Assembly (NCBI RefSeq): GCF_003790525.1
Contig: NZ_CP033635.1
From: Escherichia coli
GTDB taxonomy: Bacteria; Pseudomonadota; Gammaproteobacteria; Enterobacterales; Enterobacteriaceae
DNA length: 64,000 nt
Reading direction: 5' to 3' (one strand)
This document shows positions 33,001-39,000 of this stretch, piece after piece. The position numbers were made by a program. The first letter of the stretch is position 1. The number at the start of each line of letters is the position of its first letter.

Positions 33001-36000
33001 CTCCTGAGTGGTTTTTTGATTACAAACACCAACAATCTTAGTCAATAATTAATCTAATACCATCAAATAGTTAATCATGATTTTTGTTTTGTGATTCTGA
33101 TTAAGAAAAAGAAAATACCAGACGATAAGACAAAATATCAAGCGTTGTGAAGAAATGTTATTTGCTCTTTTGCGTCTATAGTCATGATGTCAAATGAACG
33201 CGTTTCGACAGGAAATCATCATGAATAAATATCAGGCAGTTATTATTGGTTTTGGCAAGGCTGGAAAAACATTAGCCGTCACGCTGGCAAAAGCAGGTTG
33301 GCGTGTGGCTCTCATCGAACAATCAAATGCAATGTATGGCGGGACCTGTATTAATATCGGCTGTATCCCAACCAAAACATTGGTTCATGACGCACAGCAG
33401 CACACAGATTTTGTCCGTGCCATACAGCGTAAAAATGAAGTGGTTAATTTTTTACGTAATAAGAATTTTCATAATCTTGCGGATATGCCCAATATCGACG
33501 TGATCGACGGCCAGGCGGAGTTTATCAATAATCATAGCCTGCGTGTTCATCGGCCTGAGGGAAATCAGGAGATTCATGGCGAGAAAATTTTTATTAATAC
33601 CGGTGCACAAACCGTGGTTCCGCCAATTCCTGGAATTACCACCACGCCTGGTGTATATGACAGCACCGGATTACTTAATCTAAAAGAATTGCCTGCACAT
33701 TTAGGTATTTTGGGCGGCGGATATATTGGCGTTGAGTTCGCCTCTATATTCGCTAATTTTGGCAGCAAAGTAACCATTTTAGAGGCAGCTTCGCTGTTTT
33801 TGCCTCGGGAAGATCGGGATATTGCTGATAATATCGCGACGATTTTACGCGATCAGGGCGTCGATATAATCCTCAATGCCCATGTGGAGCGAATCAGTCA
33901 CCATGAAAATCAAGTGCAAGTGCATAGCGAGCACGCCCAACTGGCGGTGGATGCACTGTTAATAGCTTCCGGTCGTCAACCGGCTACCGCTTCGTTACAT
34001 CCAGAAAATGCAGGTATCGCAGTAAACGAGCGAGGGGCAATTGTCGTTGACAAGCAATTACATACCACCGCAAACAATATTTGGGCGATGGGAGATGTTA
34101 CCGGCGGGCTGCAATTTACTTACATTTCACTGGATGATTACCGCATTGTGCGTGATGAATTGCTGGGAGAAGGCAGACGTAGTACTGATGATCGGAAAAA
34201 TGTGCCTTATTCCGTATTCATGACACCGCCACTGTCCAGGGTTGGTATGACAGAAGAACAGGCCAGAGAGAGTGGTGCTGATATTCAGGTGGTGACATTG
34301 CCTGTAGCTGCAATTCCGCGTGCCAGAGTGATGAATGATACTCGTGGGGTATTAAAAGCGATTGTTGATAATAAAACCCAACGTATATTAGGGGCATCAC
34401 TGCTGTGTGTTGACTCCCACGAGATGATCAATATAGTGAAAATGGTGATGGATGCCGGGCTGCCTTATAGCATATTACGCGATCAGATATTTACTCATCC
34501 GTCGATGAGCGAATCACTCAATGATCTATTTTCATTAGTCAAATAAACTCAAAATCAGACGCCAGAACAAATATTCTGGCGTCTCAGAGAAAAGAATCTT
34601 ATTAATTCCCTGTTACTTTATAACTTCTTAATCACTTCATTGATGGTATTTTATATGTTTAAAAAATCTGTTTTATTTGCAACACTATTATCTGGCGTTA
34701 TGGCATTTTCCACCAATGCAGATGATAAAATAATTCTGAAACATATCAGCGTCTCGTCAGTATCAGCATCACCGACAGTTCTTGAGGATGCCATTGCTGA
34801 TATGGCCAGAAAATATAATGCTTCATCCTGGAAAGTCACATCGATGCGAATTGATAATAATTCAACCGCAACAGCAGTATTGTATAAATAAGGATGTTTA
34901 CAATGGAGAAATACCTGCACCTGTTAAGTCGGGGAGATAAAATTGGCCTGACATTGATTCGTCTGAGTATTGCGATTGTTTTTATGTGGATTGGGTTATT
35001 AAAGTTTGTCCCTTATGAGGCAGACAGCATTACACCATTCGTCGCAAACAGTCCACTAATGTCGTTCTTTTATGAACACCCAGAAGACTATAAACAGTAT
35101 CTGACTCACGAAGGCGAATACAAACCAGAAGCAAGAGCATGGCAAACGGCTAATAATACCTATGGTTTTTCCAACGGTCTTGGCGTCGTGGAGGTGATTA
35201 TTGCTCTGCTGGTTTTGGCTAATCCTGTCAATCGCTGGTTAGGTTTATTGGGTGGGCTGATGGCATTTACCACGCCGCTGGTAACACTCTCATTTTTAAT
35301 CACCACTCCGGAAGCATGGGTACCCGCATTGGGTGATGCTCATCATGGTTTCCCTTATTTATCCGGTGCTGGTCGTCTGGTATTGAAAGATACTCTGATG
35401 CTGGCAGGAGCTGTCATGATAATGGCAGATTCGGCGCGGGACATTCTTAAACAACGCAGTAATGAATCCAGTTCAACGTTAAAAACTGAATATTGATAAT
35501 CCGAACACTGTCTGTTGTTCACTTTTTCAGGCGTCAGGCTTTCCTTGCTAATGGGTGAAGCCTGACGCCATATTACCTGAAACAGGACAATGTAAGGTTC
35601 AATATAACTCCCTTATTAAAACATTTATGTCATCTCAGGTAAAATAAGTGATTAATATCAACCATGTGTTTTTACAGCAAGACAACCACGAACAAACTCA
35701 GGATTAAAATGTTTTACCGATTCGCCAACATAACCCAAATCTAGCGAACTAATTTGCGCCATTTCTTTCTCTGTCAGTGAGAAATCCCAGATAGCAAAAT
35801 TTTCTTCGATACGCTGTTGATGTGTCGATTTCGGAATAACGACCACTCCCCGTTGAATATTCCAACGCAGAATGACTTGAGAAATCGATTTTTGATGGGC
35901 ATCTGCAATACTCTGAAGCAGATTATTTTCAAAGGGTTTATGTCGTCCACCACCTAACGGAGCCCATGCTTCAGGCTGCACGTTATAATACTTCATGGTT

Positions 36001-39000
36001 GCCAGCGCCTCTGGTTGGGCAAAATAGGGATGCAACTCGACCTGGTTGACCATCGGTTTAACTCTTACCGTTTCACAAAAGTTCGCCAGAACATGAGGGT
36101 AGAAATTGGAAACCCCAATCGCTTTTAATTTGCCCTCTTCATAGGCATCTTCGAGTGCACGCCACGCACTAAAATAATCGCGCATGGCCTGGTGCAATAA
36201 ATAGAGATCGAAGTATTCTAGCCCCGATTTTTTTAATGATGCTTCAATACCTGCTGCTGCAATATCCTGATTCAACATATCCTGCACCCACAATTTAGAC
36301 GTTATAAATAACTCTTCTCGGGTACATAAACCTTCAGATATGGCTTCACGAACGGCTTCACCGACGGCATCTTCATTACCGTATACCGCTGCAGTGTCGA
36401 TGAGTCGATAACCCGTGCGGATAGCATTCAACACTGACTGTTTACACACGTCTTTATCGGTAACCTGAAAAACACCAAATCCCATCATCGGCATTTTCAG
36501 ATTGTTACTTAATACGGAAAATTCCACTGTCAGTCCCTCCATTAGGTATGAACAATGAGTCTACGTTAAAACGTAACCTCAAATTAGTATGTGGATTTTG
36601 ATATCACTTATGCAAAAAATTCATTAATAATGTAGGACTGAAACCTCTCTATTTTTGGGGCAATGAAGCAGACGCTATCAGTGCTTTTGCCTTGGGACTT
36701 GCTGTTTTTGATACACTTAGGGCCCAGGACATAACGAAAATGTGCGATATGACAAAGAATTAACGGAGTATGTGATGATCAGGCAGAAGATTCTACAGCA
36801 GCTCCTGGAGTGGATTGAGTGCAATCTTGAGCACCCTATTTCAATCGAAGATATCGCACAGAAATCTGGCTACAGCAGACGCAACATCCAGCTTCTGTTC
36901 CGAAATTTCATGCATGTGCCTTTGGGAGAATACATTCGCAAACGAAGGCTTTGTCGTGCCGCCATTCTTGTCCGGCTCTCCGCGAAATCTATGCTTGATA
37001 TTGCACTCTCTTTGCATTTTGATTCACAGCAATCATTCAGCCGAGAATTTAAAAAGTTATTCGGCTGCTCTCCCCGTGAATACCGCCACCGTGATTATTG
37101 GGATCTCGCAAATATCTTCCCTTCTTTTTTAATACGTCAACAGCAAAAGACGGAGTGTAGATTAGTCAACTTTCCTGAGACACCTATTTTTGGCAATTCA
37201 TTTAAATATTATATTGAAGTGTCGAATAAATCACCGGATGAAGAAGTCAAACTGCGACGTCATCATTTAGTCAGATGTATGAAGAATTTTAAGACGGATA
37301 TCTATTTCGTCTCCACGTTCGAACCGTCAACAAAATCGGTCGATTTGCTCACAGTTGAAACTTTTGCCGGTACGGTATGCAAAGAAACCGATTCAGAGAT
37401 GTCGAAAGAGTGGACAATTAACCGAGGACTGTATGCCTCTTTCCGCTATGAAGGTGAGTGGGAGCTCTACCCTGAATGGACGCGAAACCTCTATCTGATG
37501 GAATTACCCGCCAGGAGGTTAGCCAGAATGAACGGCAGTGATATTGAGCGATTTTATTACAATGAAGATTTCGTAGAAAAGGATAGCAATGATGTTGTTT
37601 GCGAAATATTTATCCCTGTTCGTCCGGTTTAGTTATCGCTATATCTAAATGAATTTATAACGAGACTACTGTCAGGCAATTCAATAAATAATGGCGTTGA
37701 AGATGTCAACGCCATTATTGTTTATTAGAATGTTACTTTCATACTCTTAATATTATTTCATCGCCTCCTCGCCCGTTGCCGTATTGGCATCCACCGCGGT
37801 AATGGTCACAGTCACTGGTTTCATTTCATACCCTCCATATGTCAAAGAGTTGAATGTGAATGTGTATGTACCTGGCTTGTTGGTACTAAATGTACGCGTG
37901 ATTTTTCCGCTCACGAAATGGTCATTTTTCGACGGCAGGAATTGATAATCCTTCTCCGTCACTCCTTCCGGAGCCTCAATGTCGACCCACACATTCCCCC
38001 CAACAGGGTTATTTGCCGAGAACAGGGTAACCGTCATTGTTGCGGTCTGTACCCCATCCGCCACCAGAGAAGTCACATCAGATGATGCGGCGAGCACCGC
38101 GTTTTTATCATCCGCGACGAATTTAGATTCAGCAGTTTTCGTCGATTCCTGACCGTTGGCCTGTTCCACTTTCGCCGTGAGTGTATATTTCGCCGCGACA
38201 GTGGTCGTGGCGGTGAAAATAGCCTGCCCTTGCTCATTAGTTTTCGCCGTCCCATCGGGATCCAGAGCTAAATTTGCCGGGCTGGCAGTCAGCGTCACCT
38301 CGCTATCTTTCAACAGGTTGTTATTGGCATCAGTCACCGTAACTTTATACGTCTGTTTGGCTTTGCCGTCCGCCAGAGCATAGTTGCCAATCACCTCAAT
38401 ACCGGAGACGGTTGCGGTAGTCTTATCGGCTACAAACGTTATAGTCTGCGCATCCGAAGGCTGGTCATTTCCTGCCGATGCCGTGATCTCATAGGTTCCG
38501 GCAGTCACGGAAACCACCTGCAACTCTGCTTTCCCCTCATCGTTGGCTTTCACCCAGACATTATCGCCTGTAAGCGGCTTGACACCCCGGGGCAGATTAA
38601 AGGTCACCAGGCTCCCTGGAACAGGGTTACCATTTTTATCCTCAACGTTCGCCGTCAGCGTAAAGGCATCTTTGCCGTTTGCCACTTTTTGAGCAGCGGC
38701 GTCTACCTGCAGGTTTGCCTGACCGGTGCTGGCATCCGCGTTGAATTTCACCGTGACCGTCTTCTGAGAGTTTTTCACCGCGGCCGCGATTTCAAGTTCC
38801 CCTGCAACGGTTGATATCAACTCAATATCCGCTTTACCTGCCGCATTGGTTGTTACTGTATTCCCCGTCTTGCTGGTCACACCCTGCGGTAAAGTCAGCG
38901 TAACTTCTTGCCCCTGCAACGGGTTACCATAGGTGTCCACAACGGTCAGGGTTACCTGGTTAGTCGACTGTCCATTTGCCAGCTGGTTATCAACCTTCAC

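What the first reader, a model, noticed from the sequence alone, without database searches (positions are those of the whole stretch)
35658..37632. Paralogous aldo-keto reductases on both sides of eaeH, one paired divergently with the AraC/GyrI-like regulator ykgA
The AKR at 35658-36542 and the AKR at 42572-43423 share extended motifs and flank the adhesin gene in opposite orientations. The first is divergent from an AraC-family regulator whose effector domain is GyrI-like (small-molecule binding), suggesting ligand-induced control of a reductase.
Basis: partly seen in the sequence, partly recalled or inferred. Interest (0 to 1): 0.3.

Follow-up and report, generated by a model that had tools for sequence, protein, structure and literature searches.

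The report
Rob-like regulator belongs with adhesin, not reductase
The two reductase genes and the regulator ykgA are really there, but comparison with other bacteria suggests that ykgA travels with, and probably switches on, the neighbouring adhesin gene fdeC rather than the reductase next to it.

Summary
The window is an E. coli SMS-3-5-type chromosome. AKR1 (35658-36527, -) and AKR2 (42572-43423, +) flank fdeC/eaeH, and ykgA (36775-37632, +) lies divergent from AKR1. YkgA is a full-length Rob paralogue with an AraC-type HTH and a GyrI-like domain.

AKR1 is 47-48% identical to AKR2, and equally close to Thermotoga TM1009 and Bacillus YtbE/YvgN. AKR2 is 61% identical to TM1009. They are old family members, not a local duplication.

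AKR1 and ykgA are neighbours only in Escherichia. AKR1 is intact in 2,936 of 5,426 complete genomes, ykgA in 4,628 and fdeC in 4,585. ykgA relatives at 63-65% identity lack the reductase, and two of three still sit beside an fdeC-like adhesin.

The fdeC promoter carries an invariant marbox-like 19-mer, TTGCACAAAAAGCTAAATT, 18 nt before a perfect TATAAT. This is a class II layout. Variants of the box recur beside YkgA-like genes in unrelated loci. None lies between AKR1 and ykgA.

Best reading (inferred, untested): YkgA activates fdeC, and AKR1 is an independent carbonyl reductase.

The parts
35658..36527 (-). AKR1. A 289-aa aldo-keto reductase, the intact form of the K-12 pseudogene ykgQ. Probably an NAD(P)H-dependent carbonyl or aldehyde reductase.
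   Evidence: Pfam PF00248, E 5e-43. RefSeq annotates it as 'aldo/keto reductase' with a GTG start. Catalytic tetrad present. Scores below the NCBIfam cut-offs for DkgA and DkgB. dN/dS 0.02-0.08. K-12 keeps only a 129-nt stub.
36528..36774 (.). AKR1-ykgA intergenic region. It has a half next to AKR1 and a half next to ykgA. The two halves are separated by a 154-bp insert in other Escherichia species. No YkgA-type box is present.
   Evidence: Alignment across five Escherichia lineages. Position of the insert. Box scan gives a best score of -3.6 bits. No marbox with 2 or fewer mismatches.
36596..36610 (+). Motif copy A, TTTTGATATCACTTA. It has the same orientation as ykgA. It may be a second, upstream extended -10-like element.
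   Evidence: The motif occurs only twice in the 64-kb window. It is conserved in E. coli, Escherichia sp. E1V33 and E. whittamii.
36706..36719 (+). Motif copy B, TTTTGATACACTTA. This is the ykgA core promoter: an extended -10 with TG at 36709-36710 and TACACT at 36712-36717. The start site is at about 36723.
   Evidence: Best promoter candidate on the + strand. The K-12 start site 316412 in S2 Table of PMC12052159 converts to 52 nt upstream of the ATG.
36775..37632 (+). ykgA. A 285-aa Rob paralogue. The double-HTH DNA-binding domain spans residues 1-110 (36775-37104). The GyrI-like domain spans about residues 129-283 (37159-37623).
   Evidence: Pfam. Full-length alignment to Rob 1d5y/7vwy. Below the NCBIfam cut-offs for Rob, SoxS, RamA and MarA. 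Recognition helix is SRRNIQLLF, against SKW[HY]LQR[ML]F in SoxS, Rob, RamA and MarA. The SRR signature is invariant in the YkgA family. dN/dS is 0.03-0.06 for the HTH domain (0.13 for the closest pair, too few changes to weigh) and 0.15-0.26 for the GyrI-like domain.
37687..37719 (.). A 14-pair hairpin between the convergent 3' ends of ykgA and fdeC. It is terminator-like on the + strand and may also serve the - strand.
   Evidence: Terminator scan.
37753..42006 (-). fdeC/eaeH, a 1417-aa inverse autotransporter adhesin. It is the gene that stays with ykgA across genera.
   Evidence: RefSeq annotation. FdeC-like genes lie beside ykgA-like genes in Escherichia E69, Salmonella and a further unnamed organism. 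Prevalence is 4,585 genomes, against 4,628 for ykgA.
42007..42189 (-). Predicted fdeC 5' leader of about 183 nt. It has three conserved hairpins, including CCGGGAAATCCCCGG followed by a U-run (42075-42094). The U-run can pair with the ribosome-binding site.
   Evidence: Near-invariant across genera, with four compensatory pairs. No Rfam family matches. The start site is predicted, not mapped.
42196..42201 (-). Perfect -10 hexamer TATAAT of the predicted fdeC promoter.
   Evidence: Invariant in all five lineages and in about 50 metagenomic E. coli contigs.
42220..42239 (-). YkgA-type box, cTTGCACAAAAAGCTAAATT. It is marbox-like, in forward orientation, 18 nt from the -10, centred near -40.5. 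That is the class II position.
   Evidence: One mismatch to the marbox consensus. Invariant in three Escherichia lineages and in locus L011, with one change in Salmonella, while upstream flanks diverge. Scores 32.8 bits, against 6.4 for the next best site in 64 kb. Recurs beside YkgA-like genes elsewhere. Class II definition from PMC12052159.
42572..43423 (+). AKR2. A 283-aa aldo-keto reductase, divergent from fdeC and probably co-transcribed with AKR3.
   Evidence: Pfam. 91% identical to PDB 4mhb and 61% to TM1009. Present in 1,892 of 5,426 genomes.
43450..44439 (+). AKR3. A 329-aa aldo-keto reductase of a different subfamily (the YdjG/Tas-like side), 27 nt downstream of AKR2. The finding does not mention it.
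   Evidence: Pfam E 2e-79. 31-32% identical to AKR1 and AKR2. NCBIfam matches.

Best explanation
The stretch holds three separate things that sit side by side.

(1) AKR1 is a strongly conserved, horizontally mobile, stand-alone NAD(P)H carbonyl reductase of the YvgN/YtbE/TM1009 group. AKR2-AKR3 is a second, unrelated reductase pair.

(2) ykgA and fdeC form a two-gene cassette that moves between genera.

(3) YkgA is a Rob-type monomeric activator with an N-terminal double HTH and a C-terminal GyrI-like sensor domain. It most likely binds the invariant box TTGCACAAAAAGCTAAATT, which overlaps the -35 region of the fdeC promoter. From there it would recruit RNA polymerase in the class II manner of MarA/SoxS/Rob, and so turn on the adhesin in response to a signal that is still unknown.

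Shown here: the domain architecture, the synteny, the conservation and placement of the box, and its recurrence beside YkgA-like genes.

Inferred: binding, activation and ligand control.
For: Synteny. ykgA homologues at 81%, 65% and 63% identity (Escherichia E69, Salmonella, locus L011) all lie convergent to an fdeC orthologue of 69-80% identity and have no reductase. A 44% homologue on a Siccibacter plasmid sits beside an unrelated inverse autotransporter, in a different arrangement.

Census. ykgA is intact in 4,628 complete E. coli genomes, fdeC in 4,585 and AKR1 in 2,936.

Promoter. The 19-mer and a perfect TATAAT exactly 18 nt downstream are invariant across five lineages whose upstream flanks do not align. 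In about 50 metagenomic E. coli contigs the spacer sequence varies. The box and the -10 never change, and the 18-nt spacing changes in only one contig. The box is a forward marbox centred near -40.5, which is the class II definition.

Link to the family. Box variants with 0-3 mismatches, each followed after 18 nt by a TAnnnT-type -10, occur beside YkgA-like genes in five otherwise unrelated loci. These lie upstream of the regulator itself (L022, L026, L028) or upstream of an EAL-domain gene (L025; a 4-mismatch copy in L028). The L024 copy has no assigned downstream gene. That is 5 hits against 0.06 expected in shuffles. The box occurs once in the 64-kb window, at 32.8 bits against 6.4 for the runner-up.

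Protein. The DNA-binding domain is under very strong constraint, dN/dS 0.03-0.06.

Literature. YkgA targets were reported as unidentified (PMC2064960). No held paper links ykgA with fdeC.
Against: No experiment supports binding or activation.

YkgA's helix 3 (RRNIQL) lacks the Trp and Arg that are conserved in MarA, SoxS, Rob and RamA. From my recollection of the MarA-DNA structure, those residues read the GCAC element. Yet the box keeps GCAC.

The box also fits the general marbox consensus, so MarA, SoxS or Rob could be the real activators. A marbox match with 1 or fewer mismatches is not rare by itself: 2 were found and 1.6 are expected in 64 kb.

ykgA and fdeC are convergent, and the promoter lies 4.3 kb from ykgA. 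Adjacent genes are also lost and gained together for trivial reasons.

Eight of the 13 YkgA-like loci without fdeC show no box with 3 or fewer mismatches. The L025 promoter shares spacer sequence with the fdeC promoter, so it is not an independent example.

The fdeC start site is predicted, not mapped. The study of fdeC regulation by H-NS and temperature (PMC4249167) could not be read.
Confidence: 0.5

Rival explanations
1. YkgA senses a small molecule through its GyrI-like domain and activates or represses the divergent reductase AKR1. This would resemble YqhC controlling yqhD-dkgA. It could hold in addition to control of fdeC.
For: The genes are divergent with a 247-bp intergenic region. The arrangement is conserved in E. 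coli, E. whittamii and Escherichia sp. E1V33. The AKR1 promoter has no good sigma-70 consensus, so it may need an activator. A 14/15-nt motif occurs twice in this region and nowhere else in 64 kb. From my own knowledge, Mar/Sox/Rob regulons include several oxidoreductases.
Against: Neither gene has the other as a neighbour outside Escherichia. ykgA survives in at least 1,692 genomes in which AKR1 is deleted. There is no YkgA-type box and no marbox in the intergenic region. Both motif copies face ykgA, and one is ykgA's own extended -10 promoter. A 154-bp insert splits the two halves of the region in other species without harming either.
Confidence: 0.15
2. The fdeC box is an ordinary marbox used by the global regulators MarA, SoxS and/or Rob. 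YkgA is not required for fdeC. It either acts elsewhere or is decaying.
For: The box matches the marbox consensus at all but one position and sits in the class II position. YkgA's helix 3 differs at residues conserved in all four marbox binders. Truncated YkgA variants are common among database clusters, and K-12 carries an IS3-truncated copy.
Against: Positions that the marbox consensus leaves free (3, 8, 9, 11, 12) are invariant here, with one change at position 11 in Salmonella. The central CAAAAAGCTAA is the best-kept part of the family's box variants, which points to a more specific reader. The box travels with YkgA-like genes, including on plasmids and in positions suggesting self-regulation. 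ykgA is under purifying selection, including in a lineage without AKR1. eaeH and fdeC are absent from the main text and held supplements of a genome-wide marbox screen, although that screen excluded sites more than 200 bp from a gene start.
Confidence: 0.15
3. There is no local regulatory link at all. AKR1, ykgA and fdeC are neighbours by history. YkgA controls distant genes or none, and the conserved box belongs to an unrelated factor.
For: Everything linking them is comparative. Adjacent genes in an island are inherited together anyway. YkgA targets have not been identified in the literature.
Against: The box co-occurs with YkgA-like genes in unrelated loci, 5 hits against 0.06 expected. The Mar/Sox/Rob-type promoter geometry matches the family of the adjacent regulator.
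Confidence: 0.2

Closest known systems
Rob (right origin-binding protein) and the MarA/SoxS/Rob/RamA activators of E. coli and Salmonella
   Same: YkgA aligns with Rob over its full length, E 1e-37. It has the same two-domain build of double HTH plus GyrI-like domain. Helix 6 (SQQSFSREFKK) is conserved. The candidate target site is marbox-like and in the class II position.
   Different: YkgA scores below every NCBIfam equivalog cut-off, for example Rob 191 against 380. Its recognition helix 3 is RRNIQL instead of KW[HY]LQR. The box is more information-rich than a marbox, with a fixed A-tract centre. It appears to be a local regulator tied to one adhesin gene, not a global stress regulator. Its signal is unknown.
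YqhC with yqhD-dkgA in E. coli, an AraC-type regulator divergent from aldehyde reductase genes (recalled from the literature, not checked here)
   Same: An AraC-family gene is divergent from an aldo-keto or aldehyde reductase gene.
   Different: For AKR1 and ykgA the pairing is not conserved beyond one genus. The regulator outlives the reductase in about a third of genomes. No shared operator was found.
B. subtilis YvgN/YtbE and Thermotoga TM1009 (PDB 3d3f, 3b3d, 1vp5), and PDB 4mhb
   Same: AKR1 is 47-48% identical to all of them. AKR2 is 91% identical to 4mhb and 61% to TM1009. All share the catalytic tetrad, and AKR1, AKR2, TM1009 and 4mhb share an 'HQ' after the catalytic His.
   Different: The substrates of AKR1 and AKR2 are unknown. 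Neither reaches the DkgA or DkgB equivalog thresholds.
Dedicated activators of adhesin genes, such as the AraC-type Rns/AggR for fimbriae and RovA for Yersinia invasin (from general knowledge)
   Same: A regulator gene sits next to the adhesin locus it is proposed to control. The adhesin is silent in the laboratory and is reported to be repressed by H-NS (title of the paper cited).
   Different: Those regulators lack a GyrI-like sensor domain and do not use marbox-type class II sites. A Rob-type regulator of an inverse autotransporter has not been described in the papers I could search.

Membership tests
Aldo-keto reductase superfamily (AKR1, AKR2, AKR3) | Match to the Aldo_ket_red profile above its gathering score | tested here: met
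   147.7, 172.1 and 267.1 bits, against a cut-off of 24.
Aldo-keto reductase superfamily (AKR1, AKR2) | Catalytic tetrad Asp-Tyr-Lys-His | tested here: met
   AKR1 has D44, Y49, K78 and H112. AKR2 has the matching IDTA, YQNE, TTKLW and LIHQ motifs. Alignments to solved AKRs agree.
2,5-didehydrogluconate reductases DkgA and DkgB (equivalogs) | Score above the NCBIfam curated cut-off | tested here: not met
   AKR1 scores 233.9 against 425 for DkgA and 163.5 against 327 for DkgB. AKR2 scores 261.6 against 425 and 177 against 327.
Recent local paralogue pair (AKR1 with AKR2) | The two are each other's closest relatives, with similar composition | tested here: not met
   AKR1 is 48% identical to AKR2 and 47-48% to TM1009, YtbE and YvgN. 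AKR2 is 61% identical to TM1009 and 91% to 4mhb. G+C is about 43% against 51%. AKR1 has 80-85% orthologues in Klebsiella and Vibrio.
MarA/SoxS/Rob family of AraC-type activators (YkgA) | Double helix-turn-helix DNA-binding domain | tested here: met
   HTH_18 at E 2e-19 and HTH_AraC at E 3e-16. Gap-free alignment with SoxS, Rob, RamA and MarA.
Rob-type architecture | C-terminal GyrI-like domain fused to the HTH domain | tested here: met
   PF06445 scores 36.7 bits against a cut-off of 26. Residues 5-283 align to Rob 5-288.
Rob, SoxS, MarA or RamA proper (equivalogs) | Score above the NCBIfam cut-off, and recognition helix K-W-[HY]-L-Q-R | tested here: not met
   Scores are 191 against 380 (Rob), 109.8 against 174 (SoxS), 89.6 against 180 (RamA) and 72.4 against 202 (MarA). 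The helix is R-R-N-I-Q-L. S-R-R is invariant in 13 family members.
Class II Mar/Sox/Rob-type promoter (PfdeC) | Forward-oriented box overlapping the -35 region, centred between -36 and -55 | tested here: met
   The box lies 18 nt upstream of TATAAT, centred near -40.5 relative to the predicted start. Definition from PMC12052159. The start site is predicted only.
Class II Mar/Sox/Rob-type promoter (PfdeC) | Activator binding and activator-dependent transcription | not testable with these tools
   This needs EMSA or footprinting, plus reporter or RNA measurements in ykgA mutants.
Divergent regulator-target pair (ykgA with AKR1) | Pairing conserved across taxa, and an operator in the shared intergenic region | tested here: not met
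   The pairing occurs only in Escherichia. No box or marbox is present. The repeated motif is explained by the ykgA promoter.

The most novel reading that the evidence does not exclude
YkgA may be the founding member of an unrecognised subfamily of Rob-like, ligand-sensing activators. The subfamily is marked by an S-R-R recognition helix and its own A-tract-centred box. Its members would be dedicated to cell-surface and adhesion loci: inverse autotransporters, AIDA-I, chaperone-usher fimbriae, type I secretion operons and EAL-domain c-di-GMP genes. They would spread with their box-plus-promoter as a portable cassette. In E. coli this would supply the missing switch that turns on the vaccine antigen FdeC on host contact, possibly in response to a host-derived small molecule. 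A thermosensitive leader might add a second layer of control.
Probability: 0.3. Interest if true: 0.6.

Novelty: new member of a known kind. Interest (0 to 1): 0.4.

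Why it matters
As written, the finding is ordinary. It describes two annotated reductases and an annotated regulator in a locus already drawn in the FdeC literature.

The regulator is the useful part. YkgA is the one Mar/Sox/Rob paralogue of E. coli whose targets have not been identified, partly because K-12 carries truncated copies of both ykgA and fdeC. FdeC is a broadly conserved adhesin and vaccine candidate.

If the neighbouring Rob-like sensor drives fdeC through the conserved box, that gives a direct hypothesis for how FdeC is switched on. It can be tested with one mutant, one reporter and one gel shift. It would also give a handle for finding the inducing signal.

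Tried and rejected
(1) A shared operator for AKR1 and ykgA. The motif TTTTGATA(T)CACTTA occurs twice, only in this intergenic region, and at first looked like a pair of activator sites. I rejected it as evidence. Both copies face ykgA, and copy B is an extended -10 promoter that matches the K-12 start site.

(2) A canonical marbox in the intergenic region. None was found with 2 or fewer mismatches.

(3) A local inverted duplication of a reductase around an inserted adhesin island. Identity values, nearest relatives and base composition rule this out.

(4) A functional link between AKR1 and the adjacent rcl genes. rclRABC is absent at this site in two other Escherichia species that keep AKR1.

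(5) A known RNA family in the fdeC leader or elsewhere between 35000 and 46000. None was found.

(6) A metagenome scan for the exact box, to find new box-bearing genes. It returned E. coli fdeC promoters plus chance matches without YkgA-like genes. It was useful only for showing that the box is invariant.

(7) Papers. The 2000 note on ykgA (PubMed 10972816) and the 2014 paper on fdeC regulation (PMC4249167) are not held. Other papers that mention ykgA give only expression lists.

(8) The genome-collection scan for ykgA found only Escherichia-level relatives. More distant relatives came from the protein search.

Full report
WHAT IS THERE

The window matches the chromosome of E. coli SMS-3-5 at 100% identity across this region. 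The RefSeq annotation of that record gives the gene order (window coordinates):
- rclR (-) and rclABC (+)
- an aldo/keto reductase, here AKR1 (35658-36527, -)
- a 'helix-turn-helix domain-containing protein', which is ykgA (36775-37632, +)
- fdeC/eaeH (37753-42006, -)
- a second reductase, AKR2 (42572-43423, +)
- a third reductase, AKR3 (43450-44439, +)
- two LysR-type regulators and a hydrolase

All three reductases match the Pfam aldo-keto reductase profile. YkgA matches HTH_18, HTH_AraC and GyrI-like. AKR1 most likely starts at the GTG at 36527, not the ATG at 36542. RefSeq uses the GTG, a GGAGG lies 7-8 nt upstream of it, and orthologues are uniformly 289 aa.

THE TWO REDUCTASES

AKR1 and AKR2 align at 47% identity over 258 residues, E 8e-85. 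Both keep the Asp-Tyr-Lys-His tetrad. They are not a specific pair:
- AKR1 is as close to Thermotoga TM1009 (47%) and to B. subtilis YtbE and YvgN (48%) as it is to AKR2 (48%).
- AKR2 is 61% identical to TM1009 and 91% to the solved protein 4mhb.
- AKR1 has orthologues at 80-85% identity in Klebsiella, Enterobacter, Kluyvera, Salmonella salamae and also Vibrio and Marinomonas. Its dN/dS is very low, 0.02-0.08.
- G+C is about 43% for AKR1 and about 51% for AKR2.
- AKR1 is intact in 2,936 of 5,426 complete E. coli genomes and AKR2 in 1,892.

Neither reaches the NCBIfam thresholds for DkgA or DkgB. The likely activity is NAD(P)H-dependent reduction of reactive carbonyls. This is inferred from family membership only.

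In K-12 and in strain 55989, AKR1 is reduced to the stub called ykgQ by the same two internal deletions. These remove window 35787-35877 and 35927-36511 and leave the whole intergenic region intact.

THE REGULATOR

YkgA is a full-length paralogue of Rob (E 1e-37 over residues 5-283). Its DNA-binding domain aligns without gaps to SoxS, Rob, RamA and MarA. It scores below every curated equivalog threshold.

Its recognition helix 3 reads SRRNIQLLF, where the four characterised proteins read SKW[HY]LQR[ML]F. Helix 6 is conserved. The S-R-R signature is invariant in 13 YkgA-like proteins, down to 37% identity, from Salmonella, Klebsiella, Citrobacter, Enterobacter, Siccibacter, Buttiauxella and Edwardsiella. 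This marks a distinct subfamily.

The gene is under purifying selection. dN/dS is 0.13-0.24 overall, 0.03-0.06 for the HTH domain (0.13 for the closest pair, too few changes to weigh) and 0.15-0.26 for the GyrI-like domain. [quoted passage not shown] The other papers that mention it give only expression lists.

IS ykgA COUPLED TO AKR1?

The divergent pair is kept in E. coli, E. whittamii and Escherichia sp. E1V33, and nowhere else that I could find.
- AKR1 orthologues elsewhere lie in different contexts. In Klebsiella it follows a hydrolase and an MFS transporter under a divergent LysR gene. In Enterobacter it follows a short-chain dehydrogenase under a divergent LysR gene. In Vibrio it stands alone. 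In S. salamae it lies near a short-chain dehydrogenase and a TetR gene.
- ykgA homologues at 81% (Escherichia E69), 65% (Salmonella) and 63% identity have other genes upstream.
- Full-length ykgA DNA is present in 4,628 genomes and AKR1 in 2,936. At least 1,692 genomes therefore keep the regulator without the reductase.

The intergenic region has no marbox with 2 or fewer mismatches. It falls into two independently conserved halves, separated by a 154-bp insert in other species.

It does contain a motif, TTTTGATA(T)CACTTA, that occurs twice there and nowhere else in 64 kb. Both copies point towards ykgA. Copy B is an extended -10 promoter (TG-n-TACACT). It fits the K-12 start site in S2 Table of PMC12052159, which converts to 52 nt upstream of the ATG, window 36723. 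I therefore do not count the motif as evidence for co-regulation.

WHAT ykgA GOES WITH

In every locus with a ykgA homologue of 63% identity or more, except one IS-ridden contig, the gene lies convergent to an fdeC orthologue. This holds in the Escherichia lineages, in Salmonella (FdeC 69% identical) and in locus L011 (FdeC 80% identical in the N-terminal part). A 44% homologue on a Siccibacter plasmid lies beside an unrelated inverse autotransporter, in a different arrangement.

More distant plasmid-borne relatives sit next to AIDA-I, a chaperone-usher fimbrial operon, EAL-domain genes and LuxR-plus-type-I-secretion operons. None sits next to a reductase. In complete E. coli genomes ykgA (4,628) and fdeC (4,585) have nearly the same prevalence.

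THE fdeC PROMOTER

I aligned the region upstream of fdeC from three Escherichia lineages, locus L011 and Salmonella. The far-upstream flanks do not align. One block is invariant: TTGCACAAAAAGCTAAATT, with a single A-to-T change in Salmonella. It is followed after exactly 18 nt by AAAAATATAATCCCG, which contains a perfect -10 hexamer.

This block is the single-mismatch marbox hit seen earlier at 42221-42239 on the - strand. It is in forward orientation, overlaps the -35 region, and is centred near -40.5 relative to the predicted start. That is the published definition of a class II Mar/Sox/Rob promoter (PMC12052159).

In about 50 metagenomic E. coli contigs the first bases of the spacer vary. 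The box and the -10 do not, and the 18-nt spacing changes in only one contig.

A marbox match alone is not remarkable: 1.6 are expected per window at 1 or fewer mismatches. The weight lies in three other points:
- the conservation of the block
- its geometry relative to the -10
- the fact that positions left free in the marbox consensus are fixed here

THE BOX FOLLOWS THE FAMILY

I scanned all fetched loci with the 19-mer. Copies with 0-3 mismatches turned up beside YkgA-like genes in contexts that have nothing to do with fdeC:
- upstream of an EAL-domain gene (L025, 0 mismatches)
- on the Siccibacter plasmid (L024, 2 mismatches)
- about 80-96 nt upstream of the regulator's own start, at the head of a LuxR-plus-type-I-secretion operon (L026 with 2 mismatches, L022 with 3)
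- on plasmid pSE11-3, upstream of the regulator (3 mismatches) and of an EAL-domain gene (4 mismatches)

Each copy is followed after 18 nt by a TAnnnT-type hexamer. In the 13 YkgA-like loci without fdeC there are 5 hits at 3 or fewer mismatches, against 0.06 expected from shuffles. Most loci without a YkgA-like gene have none even at 4 mismatches. The exception is the Vibrio AKR1 locus, which has two 4-mismatch matches.

A weight matrix built from these sites scores the fdeC box at 32.8 bits. The next best site in the window scores 6.4, and the best site in the AKR1-ykgA intergenic region scores -3.6.

MOST LIKELY MECHANISM

I rate the following at about 0.5 confidence, and every functional step is inferred. 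YkgA acts as a monomeric Rob-type activator. It binds the box that overlaps the -35 region of PfdeC and recruits RNA polymerase. Its GyrI-like domain gates this in response to an unknown signal. AKR1 is an independent detoxifying reductase that became ykgA's neighbour in the Escherichia lineage.

The main reservations are these:
- YkgA's helix 3 lacks the Trp and Arg conserved in the known marbox binders, while the box keeps GCAC.
- The box could be served by MarA, SoxS or Rob.
- Adjacent genes are inherited together for trivial reasons.
- Eight of the 13 family loci show no box.
- The start site is unmapped.
- The one paper on fdeC transcriptional control could not be read.

COMPARISON WITH WHAT IS KNOWN

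The locus layout is already in the literature as an fdeC cluster of regulators and reductases (PMC3324786). The homology of YkgA to MarA, SoxS and Rob is also known. I found no paper connecting ykgA with fdeC.

The closest system is Mar/Sox/Rob class II activation. YkgA fits the architecture. It fails the equivalog and recognition-helix tests, so it is a separate member, not a fourth copy of the same regulator.

VERDICT

- Observation: confirmed.
- Interpretation: partly supported. The identities of the genes are right. The proposed regulatory pairing is not supported.
- The reductase pair itself is ordinary.
- The regulator-adhesin link is a new, cheaply testable hypothesis of moderate interest.

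Noticed in passing
window 42007-42189 (- strand): The predicted fdeC 5' leader is almost invariant across genera. It folds into three hairpins with four compensatory pairs. One hairpin looks like a terminator (CCGGGAAATCCCCGG followed by a U-run, 42075-42094). The U-run can pair with the ribosome-binding site, as in a fourU-type RNA thermometer or an attenuator. fdeC is reported to be temperature-regulated. No Rfam family matches.
   Followed up: partly
window 35787-35877 and 35927-36511: K-12 and strain 55989 share the same two internal deletions. They reduce AKR1 to the ykgQ stub and leave its promoter region and ykgA untouched. About 2,100 of 5,426 complete genomes match AKR1 only in part.
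   Followed up: yes
window about 36503-36525; K-12 ykgA-ykgQ intergenic region: A site reported as ChIP-positive for AtoC in K-12 (ACTATACGGAAAATTCCACT, PMC3118216) spans the K-12 deletion junction. In this window the corresponding sequence is the 5' coding end of the intact AKR1.
   Followed up: no
window 31813-35663; L004 4423-4742: The whole rclR-rclABC block (reactive chlorine resistance) is missing between ykgE and AKR1 in Escherichia sp. E1V33 and E. whittamii. The rcl genes are therefore an insertion or deletion polymorphism at this site within the genus.
   Followed up: partly
L004 5761-5914 and L005 (equivalent to window 36681-36689): A 154-bp insert containing GCCTGATGCGCTA, which resembles a REP element, splits the AKR1-ykgA intergenic region in two other Escherichia species.
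   Followed up: no
window 43450-46500: A third aldo-keto reductase of another subfamily lies 27 nt after AKR2. Two LysR-type regulators and an alpha/beta hydrolase follow. AKR2 is present in only 35% of complete genomes. The finding does not mention AKR3.
   Followed up: partly
L025, L026, L027, L028, L029, L031, L032: YkgA-like regulators of 33-63% identity, most on E. coli IncF plasmids and one (L025) on an unidentified IS-rich contig, recur next to EAL-domain genes, AIDA-I with its heptosyltransferase, a chaperone-usher fimbrial operon, and LuxR-TolC-HlyD-ABC operons. Several carry the YkgA-type box upstream of the regulator or of the EAL-domain gene.
   Followed up: partly
L017, L018 (Vibrio) and the hit list: AKR1 has orthologues of 80-82% identity in Vibrio, Marinomonas and Marinobacterium, as single genes in unrelated contexts. 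Together with its low G+C (about 43%), this suggests horizontal spread of a highly constrained enzyme.
   Followed up: no
L019 8402-8870: In Salmonella salamae an AraC/GyrI-like gene lies 3.5 kb from the AKR1 orthologue, with four genes between them. Its N-terminus is outside the fetched DNA, so I could not tell whether it is YkgA-like.
   Followed up: no
window 37687-37719: A 14-pair hairpin lies between the convergent ends of ykgA and fdeC. It probably terminates ykgA and may also terminate fdeC.
   Followed up: no
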